64,000 nucleotides of DNA from Escherichia coli (GTDB lineage Bacteria; Pseudomonadota; Gammaproteobacteria; Enterobacterales; Enterobacteriaceae): the NCBI RefSeq assembly GCF_013122565.1, contig NZ_CP053258.1; one strand, written 5' to 3'. The position numbers were made by a program, and so were the translations under genes. Shown here piece after piece: positions 1 to 59,346 of this stretch (its first letter is position 1; every line of letters starts with the position of its first letter). The notes beneath the pieces are model-generated. The model was not told where the DNA came from. It worked only from the letters and a program-made list of their open reading frames with translations, and made no database searches.

Positions 1-299
1 AGCAGGTTGATATTCTGGGTAAATTCCCGCTGCCAGTAGAAGTTATCCCGATGGCACGTAGTGCAGTGGCGCGCCAGCTGGTGAAACTGGGCGGTCGTCC
101 GGAATACCGTCAGGGCGTGGTGACCGATAATGGCAACGTGATCCTCGACGTCCACGGCATGGAAATCCTTGACCCGATAGCGATGGAAAACGCCATAAAT
201 GCGATTCCTGGCGTGGTGACTGTTGGCTTGTTTGCTAACCGTGGCGCGGACGTTGCGCTGATTGGTACACCTGACGGTGTCAAAACCATTGTGAAATGA
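1..299 (+). CDS. rpiA: ribose-5-phosphate isomerase A, 3' portion (5' end lies outside the window)
   Basis: ORF 51..299 ends ...[11 protein letters not shown], matching the RpiA C-terminus; frame is open to the window edge; position upstream of serA fits known synteny. Confidence 0.85.
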
Positions 300-554: not shown

Positions 555-1787
555 ATGGCAAAGGTATCGCTGGAGAAAGACAAGATTAAGTTTCTGCTGG
601 TAGAAGGCGTGCACCAAAAGGCGCTGGAAAGCCTTCGTGCAGCGGGTTACACCAACATTGAATTTCACAAAGGCGCGCTGGATGATGAACAATTAAAAGA
701 ATCCATCCGCGATGCCCACTTCATCGGCCTGCGATCCCGTACCCATCTGACTGAAGACGTGATCAACGCCGCAGAAAAACTGGTCGCTATCGGCTGTTTC
801 TGTATCGGAACAAACCAGGTTGATCTGGATGCGGCGGCAAAGCGCGGGATCCCGGTATTTAACGCACCGTTCTCAAATACGCGCTCTGTTGCGGAGCTGG
901 TGATTGGCGAACTGCTGCTGCTATTGCGCGGCGTACCGGAAGCCAATGCTAAAGCGCACCGTGGCGTGTGGAACAAACTGGCGGCGGGTTCTTTTGAAGC
1001 GCGCGGCAAAAAGCTGGGTATCATCGGCTACGGTCATATTGGTACACAATTGGGCATTCTGGCTGAATCGCTGGGAATGTATGTTTACTTTTATGATATT
1101 GAAAACAAACTGCCGCTGGGCAACGCCACTCAGGTACAGCATCTTTCTGACCTGCTGAATATGAGTGATGTGGTGAGTCTGCATGTACCAGAGAATCCGT
1201 CCACCAAAAATATGATGGGCGCGAAAGAAATTTCACTAATGAAGCCCGGCTCGCTGCTGATTAATGCTTCGCGCGGTACTGTGGTGGATATTCCGGCGCT
1301 GTGTGATGCGCTGGCGAGCAAACATCTGGCGGGGGCGGCAATCGACGTATTCCCGACGGAACCGGCGACCAATAGCGATCCATTTACCTCTCCGCTGTGT
1401 GAATTCGACAACGTCCTTCTGACGCCACACATTGGCGGTTCGACTCAGGAAGCGCAGGAGAATATCGGCCTGGAAGTTGCGGGTAAATTGATCAAGTATT
1501 CTGACAATGGCTCAACGCTCTCTGCGGTGAACTTCCCGGAAGTCTCGCTGCCACTGCACGGTGGGCGTCGTCTGATGCACATCCACGAAAACCGTCCGGG
1601 CGTGCTAACTGCGCTGAACAAAATCTTCGCCGAGCAGGGCGTCAACATCGCCGCGCAATATCTACAAACTTCCGCCCAGATGGGTTATGTGGTTATTGAT
1701 ATTGAAGCCGACGAAGACGTTGCCGAAAAAGCGCTGCAGGCAATGAAAGCTATTCCAGGTACCATTCGCGCCCGTCTGCTGTACTAA
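555..1787 (+). CDS. serA: D-3-phosphoglycerate dehydrogenase
   Basis: 410 aa ORF with 2-hydroxyacid dehydrogenase NAD-binding fold (GIIGYGHIGTQ) and C-terminal ACT domain; N-terminus MAKVSLEKDKIKFLLVEG. Confidence 0.95.
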   Translation: MAKVSLEKDKIKFLLVEGVHQKALESLRAAGYTNIEFHKGALDDEQLKESIRDAHFIGLRSRTHLTEDVINAAEKLVAIGCFCIGTNQVDLDAAAKRGIPVFNAPFSNTRSVAELVIGELLLLLRGVPEANAKAHRGVWNKLAAGSFEARGKKLGIIGYGHIGTQLGILAESLGMYVYFYDIENKLPLGNATQVQHLSDLLNMSDVVSLHVPENPSTKNMMGAKEISLMKPGSLLINASRGTVVDIPALCDALASKHLAGAAIDVFPTEPATNSDPFTSPLCEFDNVLLTPHIGGSTQEAQENIGLEVAGKLIKYSDNGSTLSAVNFPEVSLPLHGGRRLMHIHENRPGVLTALNKIFAEQGVNIAAQYLQTSAQMGYVVIDIEADEDVAEKALQAMKAIPGTIRARLLY

Positions 1788-1808
1788 TTCCCCTTCTCTG
1801 AAAATCAA

Positions 1809-1838
1809 CGGGCAGGTCACTGGCTTGCCCGTTTTTTT
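1809..1838 (+). terminator. rho-independent terminator downstream of serA
   Basis: GC-rich stem-loop (cgggcagg...cttgcccg) followed by a 7-T run. Confidence 0.6.
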
Positions 1839-1971
1839 ATCCCTTCTCCACACTGTTGCCGCGTTGCGCATTCTACTTTGCGAGTCTGCTCCAGAAAATA
1901 AATCAAAGTCAGATCAATGCGTTGTGTTTATTTAATGGGGATTTACGATGGCAGGACAGCACAGGGCTGTA

Positions 1972-2114
1972 ACGGTAAAGCCCTCACCGAAGCGAGGGCT
2001 TGAAGGAGAAGGGTTATGATGCGACTTGTCATCATACTGATTGTACTGTTACTGATAAGTTTCGGAGCTTATTAACAGTCAGTCTCAGGGGAGGAGTCAT
2101 CCTCCCTTACCCTT
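1972..2114 (-). ncRNA. sibC: Sib antisense sRNA (antitoxin), copy 1; ends approximate
   Basis: minus-strand sigma70-like promoter (TTGACA-17 nt-TAATTT; plus-strand 2145..2150 and 2122..2127) firing across the ibs ORF; hairpins at 1960..2001; boundaries inferred, not measured. Confidence 0.5.
2016..2075 (+). CDS. ibsC: Ibs-family type I toxin, 19 aa hydrophobic peptide (MMRLVIILIVLLLISFGAY)
   Basis: short ORF with RBS gaaggagaagg 6 nt upstream; sequence one residue different from the K-12 IbsC I recall. Confidence 0.75.
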   Translation: MMRLVIILIVLLLISFGAY

Positions 2115-2364
2115 ACTCACTAAATTAGGTCAAAGAATCAACGATGTCAATCAGGGCGATGCGGGGTGCATCGCCCTGAACCGATCTTTTTGATAGCCAC
2201 ATCATCGCCCGCGTTTACTGCTGCAATAAATCCCTTTTCCCTGCAATGTATGTCTGCCTTACATGACGTTTTACGAGTGCACTCGAAGAAAAGATTTAAA
2301 GGCAGATCAATGCGTTGTGTTTATTTAATGGGGATTTACGATGGCAGGGCAGCATGGGGCTGTA

Positions 2365-2507
2365 ACGGTAAAGCCCTCACCGAAGCGAGTGCTTGAAGGA
2401 GAAGGGTTATGATGCGACTTGCCATCATACTGATTGTACTGTTACTCATAAGTTTCCCAGCTTATTAACAGTCAGTCTCAGGGGCGGAGTCATCCTCCCT
2501 TACCCTT
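2365..2507 (-). ncRNA. Sib antisense sRNA (antitoxin), copy 2; ends approximate
   Basis: same promoter and hairpin architecture as copy 1, shifted by 393 bp (plus-strand 2538..2543 and 2515..2520). Confidence 0.45.
2409..2468 (+). CDS. Ibs-family type I toxin, second copy (MMRLAIILIVLLLISFPAY)
   Basis: paralogous 19-codon ORF with the same RBS; two substitutions relative to copy 1 (V5A, G17P). Confidence 0.7.
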   Translation: MMRLAIILIVLLLISFPAY

Positions 2508-2568
2508 ACTCACTAAATTAGGTCAAAGAATCAACGATGTCAATCAGGGCGATGCAGGTGTGTCGCCC

Positions 2569-3117
2569 TCACCACTCCCAGACTTTCGACGGTGTAACCA
2601 CCGCAGGAAGAGGGATATCCCACTCTTCAACGGGGAGTTTTTCCACCAACTGACAATCATGCGCATAACCCACCGGTTGCATTTTATAGTGCTGCCAGTT
2701 TTGTAAGGTCCGATCATAAAAACCACCGCCCATTCCCAGGCGCTGGCCGTACTCATCAAAGGCGACCAGCGGTGTGATCAACACGTCTAATCGGGAAAGG
2801 GGTAGCACGTCACGCACATCCAATTTTGGCTCATGGATCTTCAACCTGTTCATCACCAGTTCGCTTTGCGGATGGTAATTCAGGAACAGCAAATTACCGG
2901 CACTAAAGGGATGCAAAACTGGAAGATATACGCGCTTACCGGCGCGCCAGAGTTGTTCTATGAGTGGCTGGGTGTCGAGTTCGCCATCAAAAGAGAGGAA
3001 TACAGCGACCGTATGTGCCATCACCACCGGGGGATAAGTCATCATCCGGGTAGCGGCTTGTTGACCCATTTCCTGCTGTTGTTCCGGCGTTAACGTACGA
3101 CGACGTTGCCGAATCAT
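2569..3117 (-). CDS. ygfA: 5-formyltetrahydrofolate cyclo-ligase family protein
   Basis: 182 aa from MIRQRRRTLTPEQQ...; the ORF-track 248 aa form is an upstream extension that runs through ssrS. Confidence 0.85.
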   Translation of the reverse strand: MIRQRRRTLTPEQQQEMGQQAATRMMTYPPVVMAHTVAVFLSFDGELDTQPLIEQLWRAGKRVYLPVLHPFSAGNLLFLNYHPQSELVMNRLKIHEPKLDVRDVLPLSRLDVLITPLVAFDEYGQRLGMGGGFYDRTLQNWQHYKMQPVGYAHDCQLVEKLPVEEWDIPLPAVVTPSKVWEW

Positions 3118-3189
3118 TTTGCGGATTTCTTGTCGGGATAATGTCAGTGGGAGTTCTGGTAGTTGCGTCATGGCTGGTGCCAGATAAGA

Positions 3190-3375
3190 AGGGAATCTCC
3201 GAGATGCCGCCGCAGGCTGTAACCCTTGAACCCTTGGTTCAAGGTGAATGTGTCGTCGCAGTTTTAAGGCTTCTCGGACGGACCGAGCATGCTCACCAAC
3301 CGCGGAGCGCCACATTCTTGTGGTATGAAATATCGGCTCAGGGGACTGGCCCGCTTGCGAACATCTCAGAGAAAT
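3190..3375 (-). ncRNA. ssrS: 6S RNA
   Basis: plus strand carries the reverse complement of the 6S RNA sequence (5' AUUUCUCUGAGAUGUUCGCAAGCGGGCCAGUCCCCUGAGCC ... GGAGAUUCCCU 3'); immediately upstream of ygfA as in the known ssrS-ygfA operon. Confidence 0.9.
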
Positions 3376-19511: not shown

Positions 19512-20222
19512 ATGAAGAAAGGTTTTATGTTGTTTACTTTGTTAGCGGCGTTTTCAGGCTTTGCTCAGGCTGATGACGCGGCAATTCAACAAACGTTAGC
19601 CAAAATGGGCATCAAAAGCAGCGATATTCAGCCCGCGCCCGTAGCTGGCATGAAGACAGTTCTGACTAACAGCGGCGTGTTGTACATCACCGATGATGGT
19701 AAACATATCATTCAGGGGCCAATGTATGACGTTAGTGGCACGGCTCCGGTCAATGTCACCAATAAGATGCTGTTAAAGCAGTTGAATGCGCTTGAAAAAG
19801 AGATGATCGTTTATAAAGCGCCGCAGGAAAAACACGTCATCACCGTGTTTACTGATATTACCTGTGGTTACTGCCACAAACTGCATGAGCAAATGGCAGA
19901 CTACAACGCGCTGGGGATCACCGTACGTTATCTTGCTTTCCCGCGCCAGGGGCTGGATAGCGATGCTGAGAAAGAAATGAAAGCTATCTGGTGTGCGAAA
20001 GACAAAAACAAAGCGTTTGATGATGTGATGGCAGGTAAAAGCGTCGCACCAGCCAGTTGCGACGTGGATATTGCCGACCATTACGCACTTGGCGTCCAGC
20101 TTGGCGTTAGCGGTACTCCGGCAGTTGTGCTGAGCAATGGCACACTTGTTCCGGGTTACCAGCCGCCGAAAGACATGAAAGAATTCCTCGACGAACACCA
20201 AAAAATGACCAGCGGTAAATAA
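19512..20222 (+). CDS. dsbC: thiol:disulfide interchange protein DsbC
   Basis: 236 aa with signal peptide and CGYC active site. Confidence 0.95.
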   Translation: MKKGFMLFTLLAAFSGFAQADDAAIQQTLAKMGIKSSDIQPAPVAGMKTVLTNSGVLYITDDGKHIIQGPMYDVSGTAPVNVTNKMLLKQLNALEKEMIVYKAPQEKHVITVFTDITCGYCHKLHEQMADYNALGITVRYLAFPRQGLDSDAEKEMKAIWCAKDKNKAFDDVMAGKSVAPASCDVDIADHYALGVQLGVSGTPAVVLSNGTLVPGYQPPKDMKEFLDEHQKMTSGK

Positions 20223-20227
20223 TTCGC

Positions 20228-21961
20228 GTGAAACAACAGATACAACTTCGTCGCCGTGAAGTCGATGAAACGGCAGACTTGCCCGCTGAATTGCCTCCCT
20301 TGCTGCGCCGTTTATACGCCAGCCGAGGAGTACGCAGTGCGCAAGAACTGGAACGCAGTGTTAAAGGTATGTTGCCCTGGCAGCAACTGAGCGGCGTCGA
20401 AAAGGCCGTTGAGATCCTTTACAACGCTTTTCGCGAAGGAACGCGGATTATTGTGGTCGGTGATTTCGACGCCGACGGTGCCACCAGCACGGCTCTAAGC
20501 GTGCTGGCGATGCGCTCGCTTGGTTGCAGCAATATCGACTACCTGGTTCCAAACCGTTTCGAAGACGGTTACGGCTTAAGCCCGGAAGTGGTCGATCAGG
20601 CCCATGCCCGTGGCGCGCAGTTAATTGTCACGGTGGATAACGGTATTTCCTCCCATGCAGGGGTTGAACACGCTCGTTCGTTGGGCATTCCGGTTATTGT
20701 TACCGATCACCATTTGCCGGGCGACACATTACCCGCGGCGGAAGCGATCATTAACCCTAACTTGCGCGACTGCAATTTCCCGTCGAAATCACTGGCAGGC
20801 GTGGGGGTGGCGTTTTATCTGATGCTGGCGCTGCGCACCTTTTTGCGCGATCAGGGCTGGTTTGATGAGCGCGGCATCGCAATTCCTAATCTGGCAGAAC
20901 TGCTGGATCTGGTCGCGCTGGGGACAGTGGCGGACGTCGTGCCGCTGGACGCTAATAATCGCATTCTGACCTGGCAGGGGATGAGTCGCATCCGTGCCGG
21001 AAAGTGCCGTCCGGGAATCAAAGCGCTGCTGGAAGTGGCGAACCGCGATGCGCAAAAACTCGCCGCCAGCGATTTAGGTTTTGCGCTGGGGCCACGTCTC
21101 AATGCTGCCGGGAGACTGGACGATATGTCCGTCGGTGTGGCGCTGTTGCTGTGCGACAACATCGGCGAAGCGCGCGTGCTGGCAAATGAACTCGATGCCC
21201 TAAACCAGACGCGAAAAGAGATCGAACAAGGAATGCAGGTTGAAGCCCTGACCCTGTGCGAGAAACTGGAGCGCAGCCGTGACACGCTACCCGGCGGGCT
21301 GGCAATGTATCACCCCGAATGGCATCAGGGCGTTGTCGGTATTCTGGCTTCGCGCATCAAAGAGCGTTTTCACCGTCCGGTTATCGCGTTTGCGCCAGCA
21401 GGTGACGGTACGCTGAAAGGTTCCGGTCGCTCCATTCAGGGGCTACATATGCGTGATGCGCTGGAGCGATTAGACACACTCTACCCCGGCATGATGCTCA
21501 AGTTTGGCGGTCATGCGATGGCGGCGGGTTTGTCGCTGGAAGAGGATAAATTCGAACTCTTTCAACAACGGTTTGGCGAGCTGGTTACTGAGTGGCTGGA
21601 CCCTTCGCTATTGCAAGGCGAAGTGGTGTCAGACGGTCCGTTAAGCCCGGCCGAAATGACCATGGAAGTGGCGCAGCTGCTGCGCGATGCTGGCCCGTGG
21701 GGGCAGATGTTCCCGGAGCCGCTGTTTGACGGTCATTTCCGTCTGCTGCAACAGCGGCTGGTGGGCGAACGTCATTTGAAAGTCATGGTCGAACCGGTCG
21801 GCGGCGGTCCGCTGCTGGATGGTATTGCTTTTAATGTCGATACCGCCCTCTGGCCGGATAACGGCGTGCGCGAAGTGCAACTGGCTTACAAGCTCGATAT
21901 CAACGAGTTTCGCGGCAACCGCAGCCTGCAAATTATCATCGACAATATCTGGCCAATTTAG
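20228..21961 (+). CDS. recJ: single-stranded-DNA-specific exonuclease RecJ
   Basis: 577 aa DHH-family phosphoesterase; GTG start at 20228. Confidence 0.95.
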   Translation: MKQQIQLRRREVDETADLPAELPPLLRRLYASRGVRSAQELERSVKGMLPWQQLSGVEKAVEILYNAFREGTRIIVVGDFDADGATSTALSVLAMRSLGCSNIDYLVPNRFEDGYGLSPEVVDQAHARGAQLIVTVDNGISSHAGVEHARSLGIPVIVTDHHLPGDTLPAAEAIINPNLRDCNFPSKSLAGVGVAFYLMLALRTFLRDQGWFDERGIAIPNLAELLDLVALGTVADVVPLDANNRILTWQGMSRIRAGKCRPGIKALLEVANRDAQKLAASDLGFALGPRLNAAGRLDDMSVGVALLLCDNIGEARVLANELDALNQTRKEIEQGMQVEALTLCEKLERSRDTLPGGLAMYHPEWHQGVVGILASRIKERFHRPVIAFAPAGDGTLKGSGRSIQGLHMRDALERLDTLYPGMMLKFGGHAMAAGLSLEEDKFELFQQRFGELVTEWLDPSLLQGEVVSDGPLSPAEMTMEVAQLLRDAGPWGQMFPEPLFDGHFRLLQQRLVGERHLKVMVEPVGGGPLLDGIAFNVDTALWPDNGVREVQLAYKLDINEFRGNRSLQIIIDNIWPI

Positions 21962-22051
21962 CGTCATCTTCTCTATAAAAAAGAGCGTGGATTGGGTACA
22001 ATCCCGCTCTTATCACCGCATTTTGACTAGCTCAATAAAAGAAATCAGACC

Positions 22052-23150
22052 ATGTTTGAAATTAATCCGGTAAATAATCGCATTCAGGACCTCACGGAAC
22101 GCTCCGACGTTCTTAGGGGGTATCTTTGACTACGACGCCAAGAAAGAGCGTCTGGAAGAAGTAAACGCCGAGCTGGAACAGCCGGATGTCTGGAACGAAC
22201 CCGAACGCGCACAGGCGCTGGGTAAAGAGCGTTCCTCCCTCGAAGCCGTTGTCGACACCCTCGACCAAATGAAGCAGGGGCTGGAAGATGTTTCTGGTCT
22301 GCTGGAACTGGCTGTAGAAGCTGACGACGAAGAAACCTTTAACGAAGCCGTTGCTGAACTCGACGCCCTGGAAGAAAAACTGGCGCAGCTTGAGTTCCGC
22401 CGTATGTTCTCTGGCGAATATGACAGCGCCGACTGCTACCTCGATATTCAGGCGGGGTCTGGCGGTACGGAAGCACAGGACTGGGCGAGCATGCTTGAGC
22501 GTATGTATCTGCGCTGGGCAGAATCGCGTGGTTTCAAAACTGAAATCATCGAAGAGTCGGAAGGTGAAGTGGCGGGTATTAAATCCGTGACGATCAAAAT
22601 CTCCGGCGATTACGCTTACGGCTGGCTGCGTACAGAAACTGGCGTTCACCGCCTGGTGCGTAAGAGCCCGTTTGACTCCGGCGGTCGTCGCCATACGTCG
22701 TTCAGCTCCGCGTTTGTTTACCCGGAAGTCGATGACGATATCGATATCGAAATCAACCCGGCGGATCTGCGCATTGACGTTTATCGCGCGTCCGGCGCGG
22801 GCGGTCAGCACGTTAACCGTACCGAATCTGCGGTGCGTATTACCCACATCCCGACCGGGATCGTGACCCAGTGCCAGAACGACCGTTCCCAGCACAAGAA
22901 CAAAGACCAGGCCATGAAGCAGATGAAAGCGAAGCTTTATGAACTGGAGATGCAGAAGAAAAATGCCGAGAAACAGGCGATGGAAGATAACAAATCCGAC
23001 ATCGGCTGGGGCAGCCAGATTCGTTCTTATGTCCTTGATGACTCCCGCATTAAAGATCTGCGCACCGGGGTAGAAACCCGCAACACGCAGGCCGTGCTGG
23101 ACGGCAGCCTGGATCAATTTATCGAAGCAAGTTTGAAAGCAGGGTTATGA
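22052..23150 (+). CDS. prfB: peptide chain release factor 2; needs a programmed +1 frameshift (join 22052..22126 and 22128..23150)
   Basis: 25-codon leader [25 protein letters not shown] ends at CUU followed by in-frame UGA; downstream +1 frame encodes RF2 with SPF and GGQ motifs. Confidence 0.9.
22113..22130 (+). promoter_or_regulatory. prfB +1 frameshift site (internal SD-like AGGGGG, then UAU CUU UGA C)
   Basis: sequence ttagggggtatctttgac matches the classical RF2 autoregulatory frameshift cassette. Confidence 0.9.
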
Positions 23151-23159
23151 GGAACCAAC

Positions 23160-24677
23160 ATGTCTGAACAACACGCACAGGGCGCTGACGCGGTAGTCGA
23201 TCTTAACAATGAACTGAAAACGCGTCGTGAGAAGCTGGCGAACCTGCGCGAGCAGGGGATTGCCTTCCCGAACGATTTCCGTCGCGATCATACCTCTGAC
23301 CAATTGCACGCAGAATTCGACGGTAAAGAGAACGAAGAACTGGAAGCGTTGAACATCGAAGTCGCCGTTGCTGGCCGCATGATGACCCGCCGTATTATGG
23401 GTAAAGCGTCTTTCGTTACCCTGCAGGATGTGGGTGGCCGCATTCAGCTGTACGTTGCCCGTGACGATCTGCCGGAAGGCGTTTACAACGAGCAGTTCAA
23501 AAAATGGGACCTCGGCGACATCCTCGGCGCGAAAGGTAAACTGTTCAAAACCAAAACCGGCGAACTGTCTATCCACTGTACCGAGCTGCGTCTACTGACC
23601 AAAGCACTGCGTCCGCTGCCGGATAAATTCCACGGCTTGCAGGATCAGGAAGCGCGCTATCGTCAGCGTTATCTGGATCTCATCTCTAACGATGAATCCC
23701 GTAACACCTTTAAAGTGCGCTCGCAGATCCTCTCTGGTATTCGCCAGTTCATGGTGAACCGCGGCTTTATGGAAGTTGAAACGCCGATGATGCAGGTGAT
23801 CCCTGGCGGTGCCGCTGCGCGTCCGTTTATCACCCACCATAACGCGCTGGATCTCGACATGTACCTGCGTATCGCGCCGGAACTGTACCTCAAGCGTCTG
23901 GTGGTCGGTGGCTTCGAGCGTGTATTCGAAATCAACCGTAACTTCCGTAACGAAGGTATCTCCGTACGTCATAACCCAGAGTTCACCATGATGGAACTCT
24001 ATATGGCTTACGCAGATTACAAAGATCTGATTGAGCTGACCGAATCGCTGTTCCGTACTCTGGCACAGGATATTCTCGGTAAGACGGAAGTGACCTACGG
24101 CGACGTGACGCTGGACTTCGGTAAACCGTTCGAAAAACTAACCATGCGTGAAGCGATCAAGAAATATCGCCCGGAAACCGACATGGCGGATCTGGACAAC
24201 TTCGACTCTGCGAAAGCGATTGCTGAATCTATCGGTATCCACGTTGAGAAGAGCTGGGGTCTGGGCCGTATCGTTACCGAGATCTTCGAAGAAGTGGCAG
24301 AAGCACATCTGATTCAGCCGACCTTCATTACTGAATATCCGGCAGAAGTTTCTCCGTTGGCGCGTCGTAACGACGTTAACCCGGAAATCACAGACCGCTT
24401 TGAGTTCTTCATTGGTGGTCGTGAAATCGGTAACGGCTTTAGCGAGCTGAATGACGCGGAAGATCAGGCGCAGCGCTTCCTGGATCAGGTTGCCGCGAAA
24501 GATGCAGGTGACGACGAAGCGATGTTCTACGATGAAGATTACGTCACCGCACTGGAACATGGCTTACCGCCGACAGCAGGTCTGGGGATTGGCATCGACC
24601 GTATGGTAATGCTGTTCACCAACAGCCATACCATCCGCGACGTTATTCTGTTCCCGGCGATGCGTCCGGTGAAATAA
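23160..24677 (+). CDS. lysS: lysyl-tRNA synthetase (constitutive)
   Basis: 505 aa class II aaRS with N-terminal OB anticodon-binding domain; 9 nt after the prfB stop. Confidence 0.95.
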
Positions 24678-24695
24678 GCATTACGTTATGCTCAC

Positions 24696-24724
24696 AACCC
24701 CGGCAAATGTCGGGGTTTTTTATT
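24696..24724 (+). terminator. rho-independent terminator after lysS
   Basis: hairpin aaccccggcaaatgtcggggtt followed by a T-run; overlaps the idi stop codon. Confidence 0.65.
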
Positions 24725-25268
24725 TAAGCTGGGTAAATGCAGATAATCGTATTCTGGCTTCGCGATTTGTCGCCTGCATCACCATCCACGGACTGAACGC
24801 CCACGGCGTGGCATCAATACCGCGTAATACATCAGCTAAATCACACCATTGATAATCCATCACTTCATCATCGTTGATCTGTAACGCACTGGTGGTGCGT
24901 GCGGCAAATACCGGACACACTTCATTTTCCACAATGCCATTCGGATCGGTGGCGCGATAGCGAAAGTCAGGATAGATAGATTCAGGAGGCGTAATTTCCA
25001 CGCCAAGCTCATAACGGCAACGGCGGATCACCGCGTCTTCGTTGCTTTCTCCCAGTTGTGGGTGCCCACAAACCGAGTTAGTCCACACGCCAGGCCATGC
25101 TTTTTTGCTCAGTGCGCGGCGGGTAACTAATAATTGTCCTTTGGCATTAAACAGCCAACTGGAGAACGCGAGATGTAAGCGGGTGTCTGCCGTGTGTGCG
25201 GCATACTTTTCCAGCGTACCCGTGGGAACTCCCTGTGCATTCAATAAAATGACGTGTTCCGTTTGCAT
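24720..25268 (-). CDS. idi: isopentenyl-diphosphate delta-isomerase (type 1, Nudix-like)
   Basis: 182 aa [25 protein letters not shown]... Confidence 0.9.
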
Positions 25269-25517
25269 AATTTCTCACATGTAATTCTGATCACTCATCA
25301 TTATAGATAATTGAAGAGTGAAATGATTAACCAAGTGAGCGTTTATCGACAACCGCCCGTTTTGAGCGGATGTCGACAGGTAAAAACCATTTAAAAAAGT
25401 AGCATCATATATTTGAAGCGACTTTCAATGGCCATTGCAACACAGTCAGAAATGACAGGAATAGAGAGAGTAAAAAGCAACAGCAGACTGAATATAGCGC
25501 GCATTAAAAAATTCATA

Positions 25518-26966
25518 TTATTCTCCATGCTCATTTTTCTTCAGCTTGCGCATCAGAAGCCACATACGTACTGTCCTGACTTTTAAATCTTTATCAGAGA
25601 CGGATTCCTTCACCAGGTCAGCATGATGCTGGTAGCCATTAAAGAAGACATTCAGCACAACGGCGCTAAGGGTTGCGAGCATAATGCCGCTATGCAGCAG
25701 CGGTTGCAGTACGGCCGGTAACTTAGAAAAGAAATCGTGAGAGAGCGTTGGAGTCATGCCAACGCCGAGACTGATCGCCACAATATAGAGGTTGTAACGG
25801 TTGGTGGTGTAGTTACAGCGCGACAGAATTCGAATCCCTGTCGCCAGTACCATGCCGAACATCACCAGCCCAGCGCCGCCCAGCACAAATTGCGGAATGG
25901 AGGCTACCAGCACCGCCATTTTTGGCACCATGCCAAACAGGATTAATATAATTCCCGAAGAAATACACACCCAGCGGCTATGAACGCGCGTCACGCTAAC
26001 CAGGCCAACGTTTTGAGAAAATGACGTATGGGGGAAGCTGTTAAACGTTCCGCCTATCATTGTCCCTACGCCATCGACACGCAGCCCGCGAATAATATCG
26101 TGTGAAGAGAGTTTACGACCAACTATTTCACCCAGTGCCAGGAACATCCCCATCGACTCGATAAACACGATGATTAACACGGCAGTCATGGTCAGAATGG
26201 AAACGGGATCAAAAATCGGCATACCAAACGACATCGGCGTAACAATCGCAAACCATGAAGCATCATGTAGCCCGGATAAATTGACTTCATTCATCATCCA
26301 CGAAAGTAAAAAGCCAAATACAATCCCCAGTAATACGGCGACGTTGGACATAAATCCTTTCGCATAGCGAGTAATGAGCAAGATAAAAATTAAGACGGCA
26401 AAGGAGATACCTAAATAAACGGGATTACCATATTGCGGATTCCCTTTACCTCCGGCGGCCCAGTCAATACCCACCTGAATGATGCTAAGCCCGATAGAAG
26501 TAATAACCACACCGGTAACCAGTGGCGGAAATAAAGGCATCAAGCGACCGATAAGTGGCGCTAATAATGTGGTGATAAAACCCGCGGCGATAGTGGCACC
26601 AAATATCCCCAGCAGGCCGATATCCGGGTTCATCCCAATGGCTATCATTGGTGTTACAGCAGCAAAGGTCACCGACATAATCACCGGCAGGCGGATCCCC
26701 ATAAAGCGGCCGATACCGATACATTGCAATAATGTGACGATCCCGCAGCAAAAGAGATCCGAGCTAATGAGCATCGCAATAGCATCTTTTGAGAGGCCCA
26801 GTCGGTCACCAATCATAAGAGGAACAGCGACTGCACCTGCGTACATGACAAGGACGTGTTGCAGACCGAGTATGATCAGCTTTCCTGGTGATAATATGCG
26901 GTCAACCTCATCAGTTGGGCGGTCTTGCCCAGAAGATGAGGGAAGTTGGGAATCTATGGCGCTCAT
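25518..26966 (-). CDS. uacT: uric acid permease (NCS2/NAT family)
   Basis: 482 aa from MSAIDSQLPSSSGQ; polytopic NAT-family transporter; ORF-track 43-codon extension trimmed. Confidence 0.9.
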   Translation of the reverse strand: MSAIDSQLPSSSGQDRPTDEVDRILSPGKLIILGLQHVLVMYAGAVAVPLMIGDRLGLSKDAIAMLISSDLFCCGIVTLLQCIGIGRFMGIRLPVIMSVTFAAVTPMIAIGMNPDIGLLGIFGATIAAGFITTLLAPLIGRLMPLFPPLVTGVVITSIGLSIIQVGIDWAAGGKGNPQYGNPVYLGISFAVLIFILLITRYAKGFMSNVAVLLGIVFGFLLSWMMNEVNLSGLHDASWFAIVTPMSFGMPIFDPVSILTMTAVLIIVFIESMGMFLALGEIVGRKLSSHDIIRGLRVDGVGTMIGGTFNSFPHTSFSQNVGLVSVTRVHSRWVCISSGIILILFGMVPKMAVLVASIPQFVLGGAGLVMFGMVLATGIRILSRCNYTTNRYNLYIVAISLGVGMTPTLSHDFFSKLPAVLQPLLHSGIMLATLSAVVLNVFFNGYQHHADLVKESVSDKDLKVRTVRMWLLMRKLKKNEHGE

Positions 26967-59272: not shown

Positions 59273-59346
59273 GCGGGCGTAGTTCAATGGTAGAACGAGA
59301 GCTTCCCAAGCTCTATACGAGGGTTCGATTCCCTTCGCCCGCTCCA
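59273..59346 (+). tRNA. glyU: tRNA-Gly (anticodon CCC)
   Basis: 74 nt cloverleaf GCGGGCGUAGUUCAAUGGUAGAACGAGAGCUUCCCAAGCUCUAUACGAGGGUUCGAUUCCCUUCGCCCGCUCCA; encoded CCA. Confidence 0.95.

What the first reader, a model, noticed from the sequence alone, without database searches (positions are those of the whole stretch)
1910..2570. Tandemly duplicated sib/ibs type I toxin-antitoxin module in the serA-ygfA spacer
Two near-identical units at a 393 bp period each contain a 19-codon hydrophobic Ibs toxin ORF with its own RBS and, on the opposite strand, a strong sigma70-type promoter positioned to make a fully overlapping antisense RNA. The two toxin copies differ at two residues (V5A and G17P), and the unit shows a few other point differences, so the copies are diverging rather than freshly duplicated. 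My recollection is that K-12 has a single copy (sibC/ibsC) at this locus, which would make copy number here a strain-variable feature.
Basis: partly seen in the sequence, partly recalled or inferred. Interest (0 to 1): 0.55.

Follow-up and report, generated by a model that had tools for sequence, protein, structure and literature searches.

The report
Tandem ibs/sib toxin-antitoxin pair, known polymorphism
The serA-fau spacer holds two adjacent copies of the well-known E. coli Ibs toxin / Sib antisense-RNA module where K-12 has one, but a third of sequenced E. coli strains share this already-annotated arrangement, so it is ordinary.

Summary
Window 1788-2568 is the serA-fau (ygfA) spacer. It contains two units 393 bp apart. 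Each unit has a 19-codon Ibs ORF with a Shine-Dalgarno site on the + strand. Each also has a full-length Rfam SIB_RNA match on the - strand (133.8 and 132.8 bits; gathering score 56). The toxins are MMRLVIILIVLLLISFGAY and MMRLAIILIVLLLISFPAY, so V5A and G17P are confirmed.

K-12 MG1655 has one copy (sibC/ibsC) in a 388-nt spacer, exactly 393 nt shorter.

It is not new. Of 5,426 complete RefSeq E. coli genomes, 1,868 (34%) carry the two-copy junction and about 3,555 carry one copy. Two lack most of the spacer; the one examined, O157:H7 TR01, has no Sib/ibs module. PGAP annotates both toxin genes in the two-copy genomes sampled, and both toxin sequences match annotated copies. Published work already describes ibs/sib as tandemly duplicated and variable in number.

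One new inference: the two Sib RNAs differ at six positions, three in recognition domain TRD1 and none in TRD2. By published SibC rules, cross-repression is therefore predicted. Sib2 also carries two stem-breaking substitutions absent from the other haplotypes compared.

The parts
1877..2269 (.). Unit 1 of the 393-nt tandem repeat (serA-proximal), including the 104-nt unit-specific segment X (2166-2269)
   Evidence: Direct repeat family D1, period 393; pairwise alignment. X is absent from one-copy genomes, which match only query positions 1-48 of the junction probe.
2270..2573 (.). Unit 2 of the tandem repeat (fau-proximal); homology ends at about the fau stop codon (2569-2571)
   Evidence: The fau CDS end is placed by comparison with annotated genomes.
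1922..1949 (+). Inferred ibs-1 promoter: -35 TTGTGT (1922-1927), 16-nt spacer, -10 TACGAT (1944-1949)
   Evidence: Read from the sequence. It sits 6 nt upstream of the position matching the 5' end of the ibsC transcript in Han et al. 2010, taken from their T7 primer sequence. The hexamer assignment is my inference.
1956..2114 (+). ibs-1 mRNA, by homology to the 159-nt K-12 ibsC mRNA
   Evidence: Primers ERI-T7-ibsC and ibsC+159 of PMC2943612, mapped onto the window through the K-12 alignment.
2003..2008 (+). Shine-Dalgarno AAGGAG of ibs-1, 7 nt before the ATG
   Evidence: Sequence.
2016..2075 (+). ibs-1 toxin ORF, 19 codons plus stop: MMRLVIILIVLLLISFGAY
   Evidence: Translation. Identical to the copy-1 protein annotated as ibsC (WP_071524576.1) in AH04, O26:H11, PT62 and O157:H7.
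1974..2114 (-). Sib-1 antitoxin RNA, 141 nt; intrinsic terminator hairpin at Sib +114..+137 (window 2001-1978)
   Evidence: Rfam RF00113, 133.8 bits. Ends set by colinearity with annotated K-12 sibC b4446. Fold -55.3 kcal/mol, z -6.75, same structure as K-12 SibC.
2122..2150 (-). Sib-1 promoter: -35 TTGACA (2150-2145), 17-nt spacer, -10 TAATTT (2127-2122)
   Evidence: Sequence. Identical to K-12 in the alignment. The sibC promoter region in K-12 is bound by sigma-S RNA polymerase (PMC4447067).
2151..2179 (.). Perfect 12-bp hairpin just upstream of the Sib-1 promoter; the unit-2 counterpart (2544-2571) is imperfect and abuts the fau stop codon
   Evidence: Sequence; alignment of the two units. 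Function not tested.
2315..2342 (+). Inferred ibs-2 promoter, identical in sequence to that of unit 1
   Evidence: Alignment. Four other two-copy strains carry five substitutions here.
2349..2507 (+). ibs-2 mRNA (by homology)
   Evidence: Unit-1 coordinates plus 393.
2409..2468 (+). ibs-2 toxin ORF: MMRLAIILIVLLLISFPAY, with SD AAGGAG at 2396-2401
   Evidence: Translation. Identical to the O26:H11 copy-2 protein (WP_001387035.1, 'Ibs family toxin') and to the single copy of Escherichia sp. MOD1-EC7003.
2367..2507 (-). Sib-2 antitoxin RNA, 141 nt; differs from Sib-1 at +23, +50, +51, +61, +86 and +118
   Evidence: Rfam RF00113, 132.8 bits; difference list. Fold -44.7 kcal/mol, z -2.28, because +23 and +118 each break a stem pair.
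2515..2543 (-). Sib-2 promoter: TTGACA, 17-nt spacer, TAATTT
   Evidence: Sequence. AH04 and PT62 have TAGTTT at the -10 (position 2518).

Best explanation
This is a tandem pair of ibs/sib type I toxin-antitoxin modules at the chromosomal serA-fau locus of an E. coli-like genome. It is the two-copy allele of a common copy-number polymorphism whose one-copy allele is K-12 sibC/ibsC.

Each unit transcribes a roughly 159-nt ibs mRNA for a 19-residue hydrophobic membrane toxin. From the opposite strand, each unit also transcribes a 141-nt Sib RNA. Sib pairs with the ribosome-binding site, start codon and whole ORF of the ibs mRNA. That pairing blocks translation and probably triggers RNase III cleavage.

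Shown here: the sequences, their family membership, the intact expression signals, and the population frequency.

Inferred from published SibC work (Han et al. 2010): pairing starts at two independent recognition domains, TRD1 (+46..+68, inside the ORF) and TRD2 (+99..+115, over the initiation region). The two Sib copies here differ at three positions in TRD1 and at none in +87..+117. Each Sib is therefore predicted to repress both ibs mRNAs through TRD2, so the two modules would be partly redundant rather than insulated.
For: Family and anatomy:
- Two RF00113 hits at more than twice the gathering score.
- ORFs, SD sites and promoters colinear with annotated K-12 sibC/ibsC.
- Sib-1 folds exactly as K-12 SibC.

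Known polymorphism:
- 1,868 of 5,426 complete genomes carry the two-copy junction.
- 1,871 genomes show two places for the spacer query.
- All 14 two-copy rows in the spread sample have both toxins annotated.
- The same G17 + P17 pair occurs in AH04, PT62, O26:H11, O157:H7 and SCPM-O-B-8794.

Literature:
- K-12 MG1655 has five copies (PMC4147584).

Cross-talk inference:
- Either TRD alone represses ibsC, and only changing both abolishes repression. A SibC with its TRD1 swapped (three substitutions at +49..51) still repressed ibsC (PMC2943612).
- Every pair among the five K-12 Sib RNAs differs by at least 3 positions in TRD2 and at least 4 in TRD1. Sib-1 and Sib-2 differ by 3 in TRD1 and 0 across +90..+115.
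Against: No expression or toxicity data exist for this strain.

The cross-repression step is extrapolated from K-12 SibC mutants, not from these alleles.

Sib-2 carries two stem-breaking substitutions: +23 in the P2 hairpin and +118 in the terminator stem. They cost 10.6 kcal/mol in predicted stability and could reduce its abundance.

The generic sigma-70 scan did not flag either the sib or the ibs promoters.
Confidence: 0.93

Rival explanations
1. The two modules are functionally insulated. Each Sib represses only its own ibs mRNA, as reported for the K-12 paralogues. The TRD1 differences at +50, +51 and +61, which include toxin codon 17, would be the specificity determinants.
For: Half of the six Sib-1/Sib-2 differences fall within the 23-nt TRD1. 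Han et al. propose that duplicated Ibs/Sib systems evolved discrimination through the TRDs. In other two-copy strains the copies also differ by one base in TRD2: +109 in AH04 and PT62, +113 in O26 and O157.
Against: In this window TRD2 and its flanks (+87..+117, 31 nt) are identical between the copies. Han et al. showed that an intact TRD2 suffices for repression when TRD1 is mismatched. Three of six differences in TRD1 is only weakly more than chance (about 1 expected; my binomial estimate is P about 0.06).
Confidence: 0.25
2. The fau-proximal module is decaying in this lineage. Sib-2 is poorly terminated or unstable, and ibs-2 is kept silent only by Sib-1 acting in trans, or is itself weakly expressed.
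For: Sib-2 +23 (U to G) and +118 (C to A) each break a Watson-Crick pair and lower the predicted fold from -55.3 to -44.7 kcal/mol. Neither change occurs in unit 2 of AH04, PT62, O26:H11 or O157:H7, or in the U2-like single copy of ST648. No complete genome matches unit 2 better than 98.5%.
Against: The Rfam score is essentially undiminished (132.8 against 133.8 bits). The ORF, SD and both promoters are intact. Two substitutions is a small sample, and the predicted terminator still forms with an internal mismatch.
Confidence: 0.15
3. The duplication is an assembly or sequencing artefact, or a very recent strain-specific duplication.
For: None found. Tandem repeats can in principle be mis-assembled.
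Against: The same arrangement, with the same 104-nt inter-unit segment, is in 1,868 closed genomes. The units differ at 8% of positions. The G17/P17 split is shared across distant lineages.
Confidence: 0.01

Closest known systems
ibsC/sibC (b4665/b4446) of E. coli K-12 MG1655, serA-fau spacer
   Same: Same locus and orientation, same 141-nt antisense RNA and same 19-codon ORF. Sib-1 is 96.5% and Sib-2 94.3% identical to SibC. The promoters, SD and TRD2 are identical.
   Different: K-12 has one unit and lacks the 104-nt segment X. Its toxin has S17, whereas these have G17 and P17. Its TRD1 reads GCU at +49..51, against UCC in Sib-1 and UGG in Sib-2.
Two-copy serA-fau alleles already in RefSeq (e.g. 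AH04, PT62, O26:H11 FWSEC0001, O157:H7 Z1833)
   Same: Same architecture, period (393, or 392 in O26:H11) and toxin pair. PGAP annotates both as 'ibsC' or 'Ibs family toxin'.
   Different: The window haplotype is at most 98.0% identical over the spacer. Its unit 2 keeps the unit-1/K-12-type ibs promoter sequence, and it carries Sib-2 +23 and +118.
Tandem sibA-sibB (yegL-mdtA) and sibD-sibE (yqiK-hldE) pairs of K-12
   Same: Two ibs/sib units in tandem in one intergenic region, with periods of 335 and 376 nt.
   Different: Those pairs are more diverged: 75% and 89.7% Sib identity, with at least 3 differences in TRD2. [quoted passage not shown] The pair here is 95.7% identical with an identical TRD2.
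ldr/rdl (LDR) and zor/orz tandem type I toxin-antitoxin repeats of E. coli
   Same: Chromosomal type I modules that occur as tandem repeats and vary in number between strains (PMC2887945 and PMC4147584).
   Different: Unrelated toxin and RNA sequences. Rdl and Orz pair with the 5' region of the toxin mRNA rather than covering the whole ORF.

Membership tests
Sib antitoxin RNA (Rfam RF00113 SIB_RNA) | Sequence and structure match to the family covariance model above the curated gathering score | tested here: met
   133.8 and 132.8 bits against a gathering score of 56; full model 1-147 matched on the minus strand.
Sib antitoxin RNA (Rfam RF00113 SIB_RNA) | Own promoter and intrinsic terminator giving an RNA of about 140 nt | tested here: met
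   TTGACA-17-TAATTT upstream of the K-12-equivalent 5' end. The terminator hairpin forms in both copies, weakened by one mismatch in Sib-2. This is sequence-level evidence only; no transcript data.
Ibs type I toxin | ORF of 18-19 codons for a hydrophobic peptide, with SD, encoded wholly within and antisense to the Sib gene | tested here: met
   ORFs 2016-2075 and 2409-2468 lie inside Sib 1974-2114 and 2367-2507. They share 18/19 and 17/19 residues with K-12 IbsC. PGAP names identical proteins ibsC / Ibs family toxin.
Ibs type I toxin | Match to a curated protein-family model | not testable with these tools
ibs/sib type I toxin-antitoxin system | Toxicity of the peptide on overexpression and rescue by the cognate Sib RNA | not testable with these tools
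   Shown experimentally for K-12 ibsC/SibC (PMC2943612). Inferred here from near-identity.
ibs/sib type I toxin-antitoxin system | Target-recognition domains TRD1 (+46..68) and TRD2 (+99..115) complementary to the cognate ibs mRNA | tested here: met
   Cis-encoded, so complementarity is perfect by construction. TRD2 is identical to K-12 SibC in both copies, and TRD1 differs from SibC at 3 positions in each copy.
sibC/ibsC locus (orthology with K-12) | Position between serA and fau (ygfA), upstream of ssrS | tested here: met
   serA 555-1787 (+), fau from 2569 (-), 6S RNA 3192-3375 (-).

The most novel reading that the evidence does not exclude
In this lineage the tandem pair may be caught in transition from two autonomous modules to a shared-antitoxin state. 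Sib-2 has acquired two stem-breaking substitutions not seen in the other haplotypes compared, and its TRD2 is identical to that of Sib-1. ibs-2 could therefore now depend on the neighbouring Sib-1 in trans. That would be a natural example of antitoxin sharing and incipient orphaning within a tandem type I toxin-antitoxin array.
Probability: 0.12. Interest if true: 0.35.

Novelty: already known. Interest (0 to 1): 0.1.

Why it matters
It matters little beyond correct annotation. Two points are practical.

PGAP annotates both Ibs toxins in the two-copy genomes examined but no sib RNA gene. The antitoxin halves of a very common locus are therefore invisible in those annotations.

The natural allele series at one locus could serve as a test bed for the published TRD1/TRD2 specificity rules. 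It comprises one-copy S17, one-copy P17, and two-copy G17+P17 haplotypes with 0 or 1 TRD2 differences between the copies. Nothing here would surprise a specialist.

Tried and rejected
1. Origin of the 104-nt inter-unit segment X (2166-2269). Local alignment against the fau 3' end, the serA-side flank, the K-12 sibA/B and sibD/E spacers, and 20 kb of the window scored no better than shuffles (z -0.4 to 1.0). The origin stays unknown, and the idea that X is a decayed copy of the fau 3' end is not supported.

2. Polarity of the event (duplication or deletion). One scan of GTDB species representatives with a 31-nt ibsC-type probe returned only two loci: an E. coli with two copies and Escherichia sp. 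MOD1-EC7003 with one. That is too few to polarise. K-12's single copy is not a simple U1/U2 recombinant, because its codon 17 (AGC) matches neither unit.

3. A first idea that the unit-2 ibs promoter had been gene-converted to unit 1 in the window. I withdrew it because K-12, ST648 and all unit-1 copies share the window's sequence. The 5-substitution cluster in unit 2 of AH04, which one search also shows in PT62, O26 and O157, looks like the derived state.

4. 'Longest exact run overlapping a TRD' as a cross-talk metric. It was too lenient: SibD/SibE scored 36 nt although they differ in the single-stranded J1/7 part. I replaced it with difference counts inside the TRD windows.

5. The primary Sib/Ibs paper (Fozo 2008, PMC2597788) and the MMBR review are not held. 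The supplement of PMC2887945 is not held either. My recollection that Fozo 2008 tabulates repeat numbers per strain therefore stays unverified.

7. The source strain was not identified. The best identity to any complete E. coli genome is 98.0% over the spacer and 99.0% over a 6-kb control segment.

Full report
**What is there**

Window 555-1787 (+) is serA. fau (ygfA) ends at 2569 on the minus strand and is followed by 6S RNA at 3192-3375 (-) and zapA. K-12 has the same gene order in reverse orientation.

The 781-nt serA-fau spacer (1788-2568) contains a direct repeat. Units 1877-2165 and 2270-2558 are 92% identical with a 393-nt period. Identity is nearly complete from about 1908/2301 to about 2180/2573. 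Chance cannot account for this.

Each unit also gives a full-length match to Rfam SIB_RNA (RF00113) on the minus strand, at 133.8 and 132.8 bits against a gathering score of 56. No other Sib copy occurs in the 64-kb window.

**Anatomy**

I transferred coordinates from the annotated K-12 sibC/ibsC and from the primer sequences of Han et al. 2010 (PMC2943612).

| Feature | Unit 1 | Unit 2 |
|---|---|---|
| ibs mRNA (+) | 1956-2114 | 2349-2507 |
| SD AAGGAG (+) | 2003-2008 | 2396-2401 |
| ibs ORF (+) | 2016-2075 | 2409-2468 |
| Sib RNA, 141 nt (-) | 2114->1974 | 2507->2367 |
| Sib promoter (-) | 2150-2122 | 2543-2515 |

- The Sib promoter is TTGACA, a 17-nt spacer, then TAATTT.
- The Sib -35 and spacing are perfect, but the -10 matches 3 of 6 positions. 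A generic scan did not flag it.
- In K-12 this promoter region is also bound by sigma-S polymerase (PMC4447067).
- An inferred ibs promoter (TTGTGT, 16-nt spacer, TACGAT) lies inside each unit. Each unit therefore carries all four expression signals.

**Comparison with K-12 and the population**

K-12 MG1655 has one unit in a 388-nt spacer, exactly 393 nt shorter. Its toxin is IbsC with S17.

Among 5,426 complete RefSeq E. coli genomes:

- A probe across the inter-unit junction is covered at 80% or more in 1,868 genomes, which is 34%.
- The full-spacer query gives two places in 1,871 genomes.
- Nearly all others have one copy.
- Two genomes are covered below 80%. The one examined, O157:H7 TR01, has a 207-nt spacer with no Sib.
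- In all 14 two-copy genomes of the spread sample, PGAP annotates both toxins.
- The window's two peptides are identical to annotated ones: copy 1 to the protein in AH04, O26, PT62 and O157, and copy 2 to the O26:H11 copy-2 protein.

The literature already describes ibs-sib as duplicated within intergenic regions. It reports seven Ibs genes in O157:H7 Sakai (PMC2887945) against five copies in MG1655 (PMC4147584). The arrangement is therefore a known, common polymorphism.

**Age of the copies**

The serA-proximal copy encodes G17 and the fau-proximal copy P17 in the window, AH04, PT62, O26:H11, O157:H7 and SCPM-O-B-8794. The paralogues therefore predate the split of these lineages.

One-copy genomes carry different alleles:

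- K-12 has S17.
- ST648 has P17, in a unit only 4 differences from the window's unit 2.
- The single copy of Escherichia sp. MOD1-EC7003 encodes exactly the window's copy-2 toxin.

I could not settle whether one or two copies is ancestral.

**Mechanism**

Established knowledge (PMC2943612 and PMC4147584): Sib pairs with the ibs mRNA over the SD, start codon and ORF. This blocks translation and probably leads to RNase III cleavage. Pairing starts at TRD1 (+46..+68) or TRD2 (+99..+115). Either domain suffices, and only changing both abolishes repression.

Measured here: Sib-1 and Sib-2 differ at +23, +50, +51, +61, +86 and +118. Three of these lie in TRD1 and none in +87..+117. Every pair among the five K-12 Sib RNAs differs by at least 3 positions in TRD2 and at least 4 in TRD1.

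Inference: the two antitoxins here should cross-repress through TRD2, so the modules would be partly redundant.

**A lineage-specific detail**

Sib-2 +23 (U to G, P2 stem) and +118 (C to A, terminator stem) each break a base pair. They lower the predicted fold energy from -55.3 to -44.7 kcal/mol. Both are absent from unit 2 of four other two-copy strains and from ST648. No complete genome matches unit 2 better than 98.5%. This may be drift or early decay of the second antitoxin. I give the decay reading low probability.

**Verdict**

Novelty is 'already known' and interest is low.

Noticed in passing
L002, L003, L007, L008 (RefSeq two-copy genomes) versus L001 (K-12): PGAP annotates both Ibs toxin CDSs in these two-copy genomes but no sib ncRNA gene. 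The curated K-12 record has sibC. The antitoxin genes are therefore missing from these RefSeq annotations.
   Followed up: partly
L004 (E. coli O157:H7 TR01) 1789-1995: This O157:H7 strain has a 207-nt serA-fau spacer with no Sib hit and no ibs gene. Other O157:H7 strains (Z1833 and many) have two copies. This looks like a recent whole-module deletion, and it suggests the locus is dispensable.
   Followed up: partly
window 2166-2269: The 104-nt segment between the two units has no detectable similarity to the fau 3' end, the flanks or other K-12 sib spacers. The junction probe containing it is unusually variable between E. coli strains, at 87-100% identity. Its origin is unknown.
   Followed up: yes
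window 2320-2334 (unit-2 ibs promoter region): Unit 2 of AH04, PT62, O26:H11 and O157:H7 carries a cluster of five substitutions here. The window's unit 2 keeps the sequence shared by unit 1, K-12 and ST648. The ibs-2 promoter may therefore differ in strength between two-copy haplotypes.
   Followed up: partly
window 2151-2179 and 2544-2571: A perfect 12-bp inverted repeat lies just upstream of the Sib-1 -35. Its unit-2 and K-12 counterpart is imperfect and abuts the fau stop codon. It may be a fau or bidirectional terminator that was copied with the unit. No T-run directly follows it.
   Followed up: no
L010 (Escherichia sp. MOD1-EC7003): This unclassified Escherichia has a single copy next to fau that encodes exactly the window's copy-2 toxin (A5, P17). 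That hints the fau-proximal P17 copy is the older one.
   Followed up: partly
window 1788-2700 and 20000-26000: No complete RefSeq E. coli genome is closer than 98.0% over the spacer or 99.0% over a 6-kb control segment (recJ-prfB-lysS-idi region). The window therefore comes from a lineage not represented among 5,426 closed E. coli genomes, possibly Shigella or a rare phylogroup.
   Followed up: partly
window 2569-3315 (-) versus 3192-3375 (-): The longest mechanical ORF for fau (248 aa, ATG at 3315) runs into the 6S RNA gene. PGAP calls a 200-aa fau (to 3171) and K-12 a 182-aa one, so the fau start is annotated inconsistently between records.
   Followed up: no
window 59273-59343 (+): A single tRNA gene, the only other Rfam gathering-level hit in the window.
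   Followed up: no
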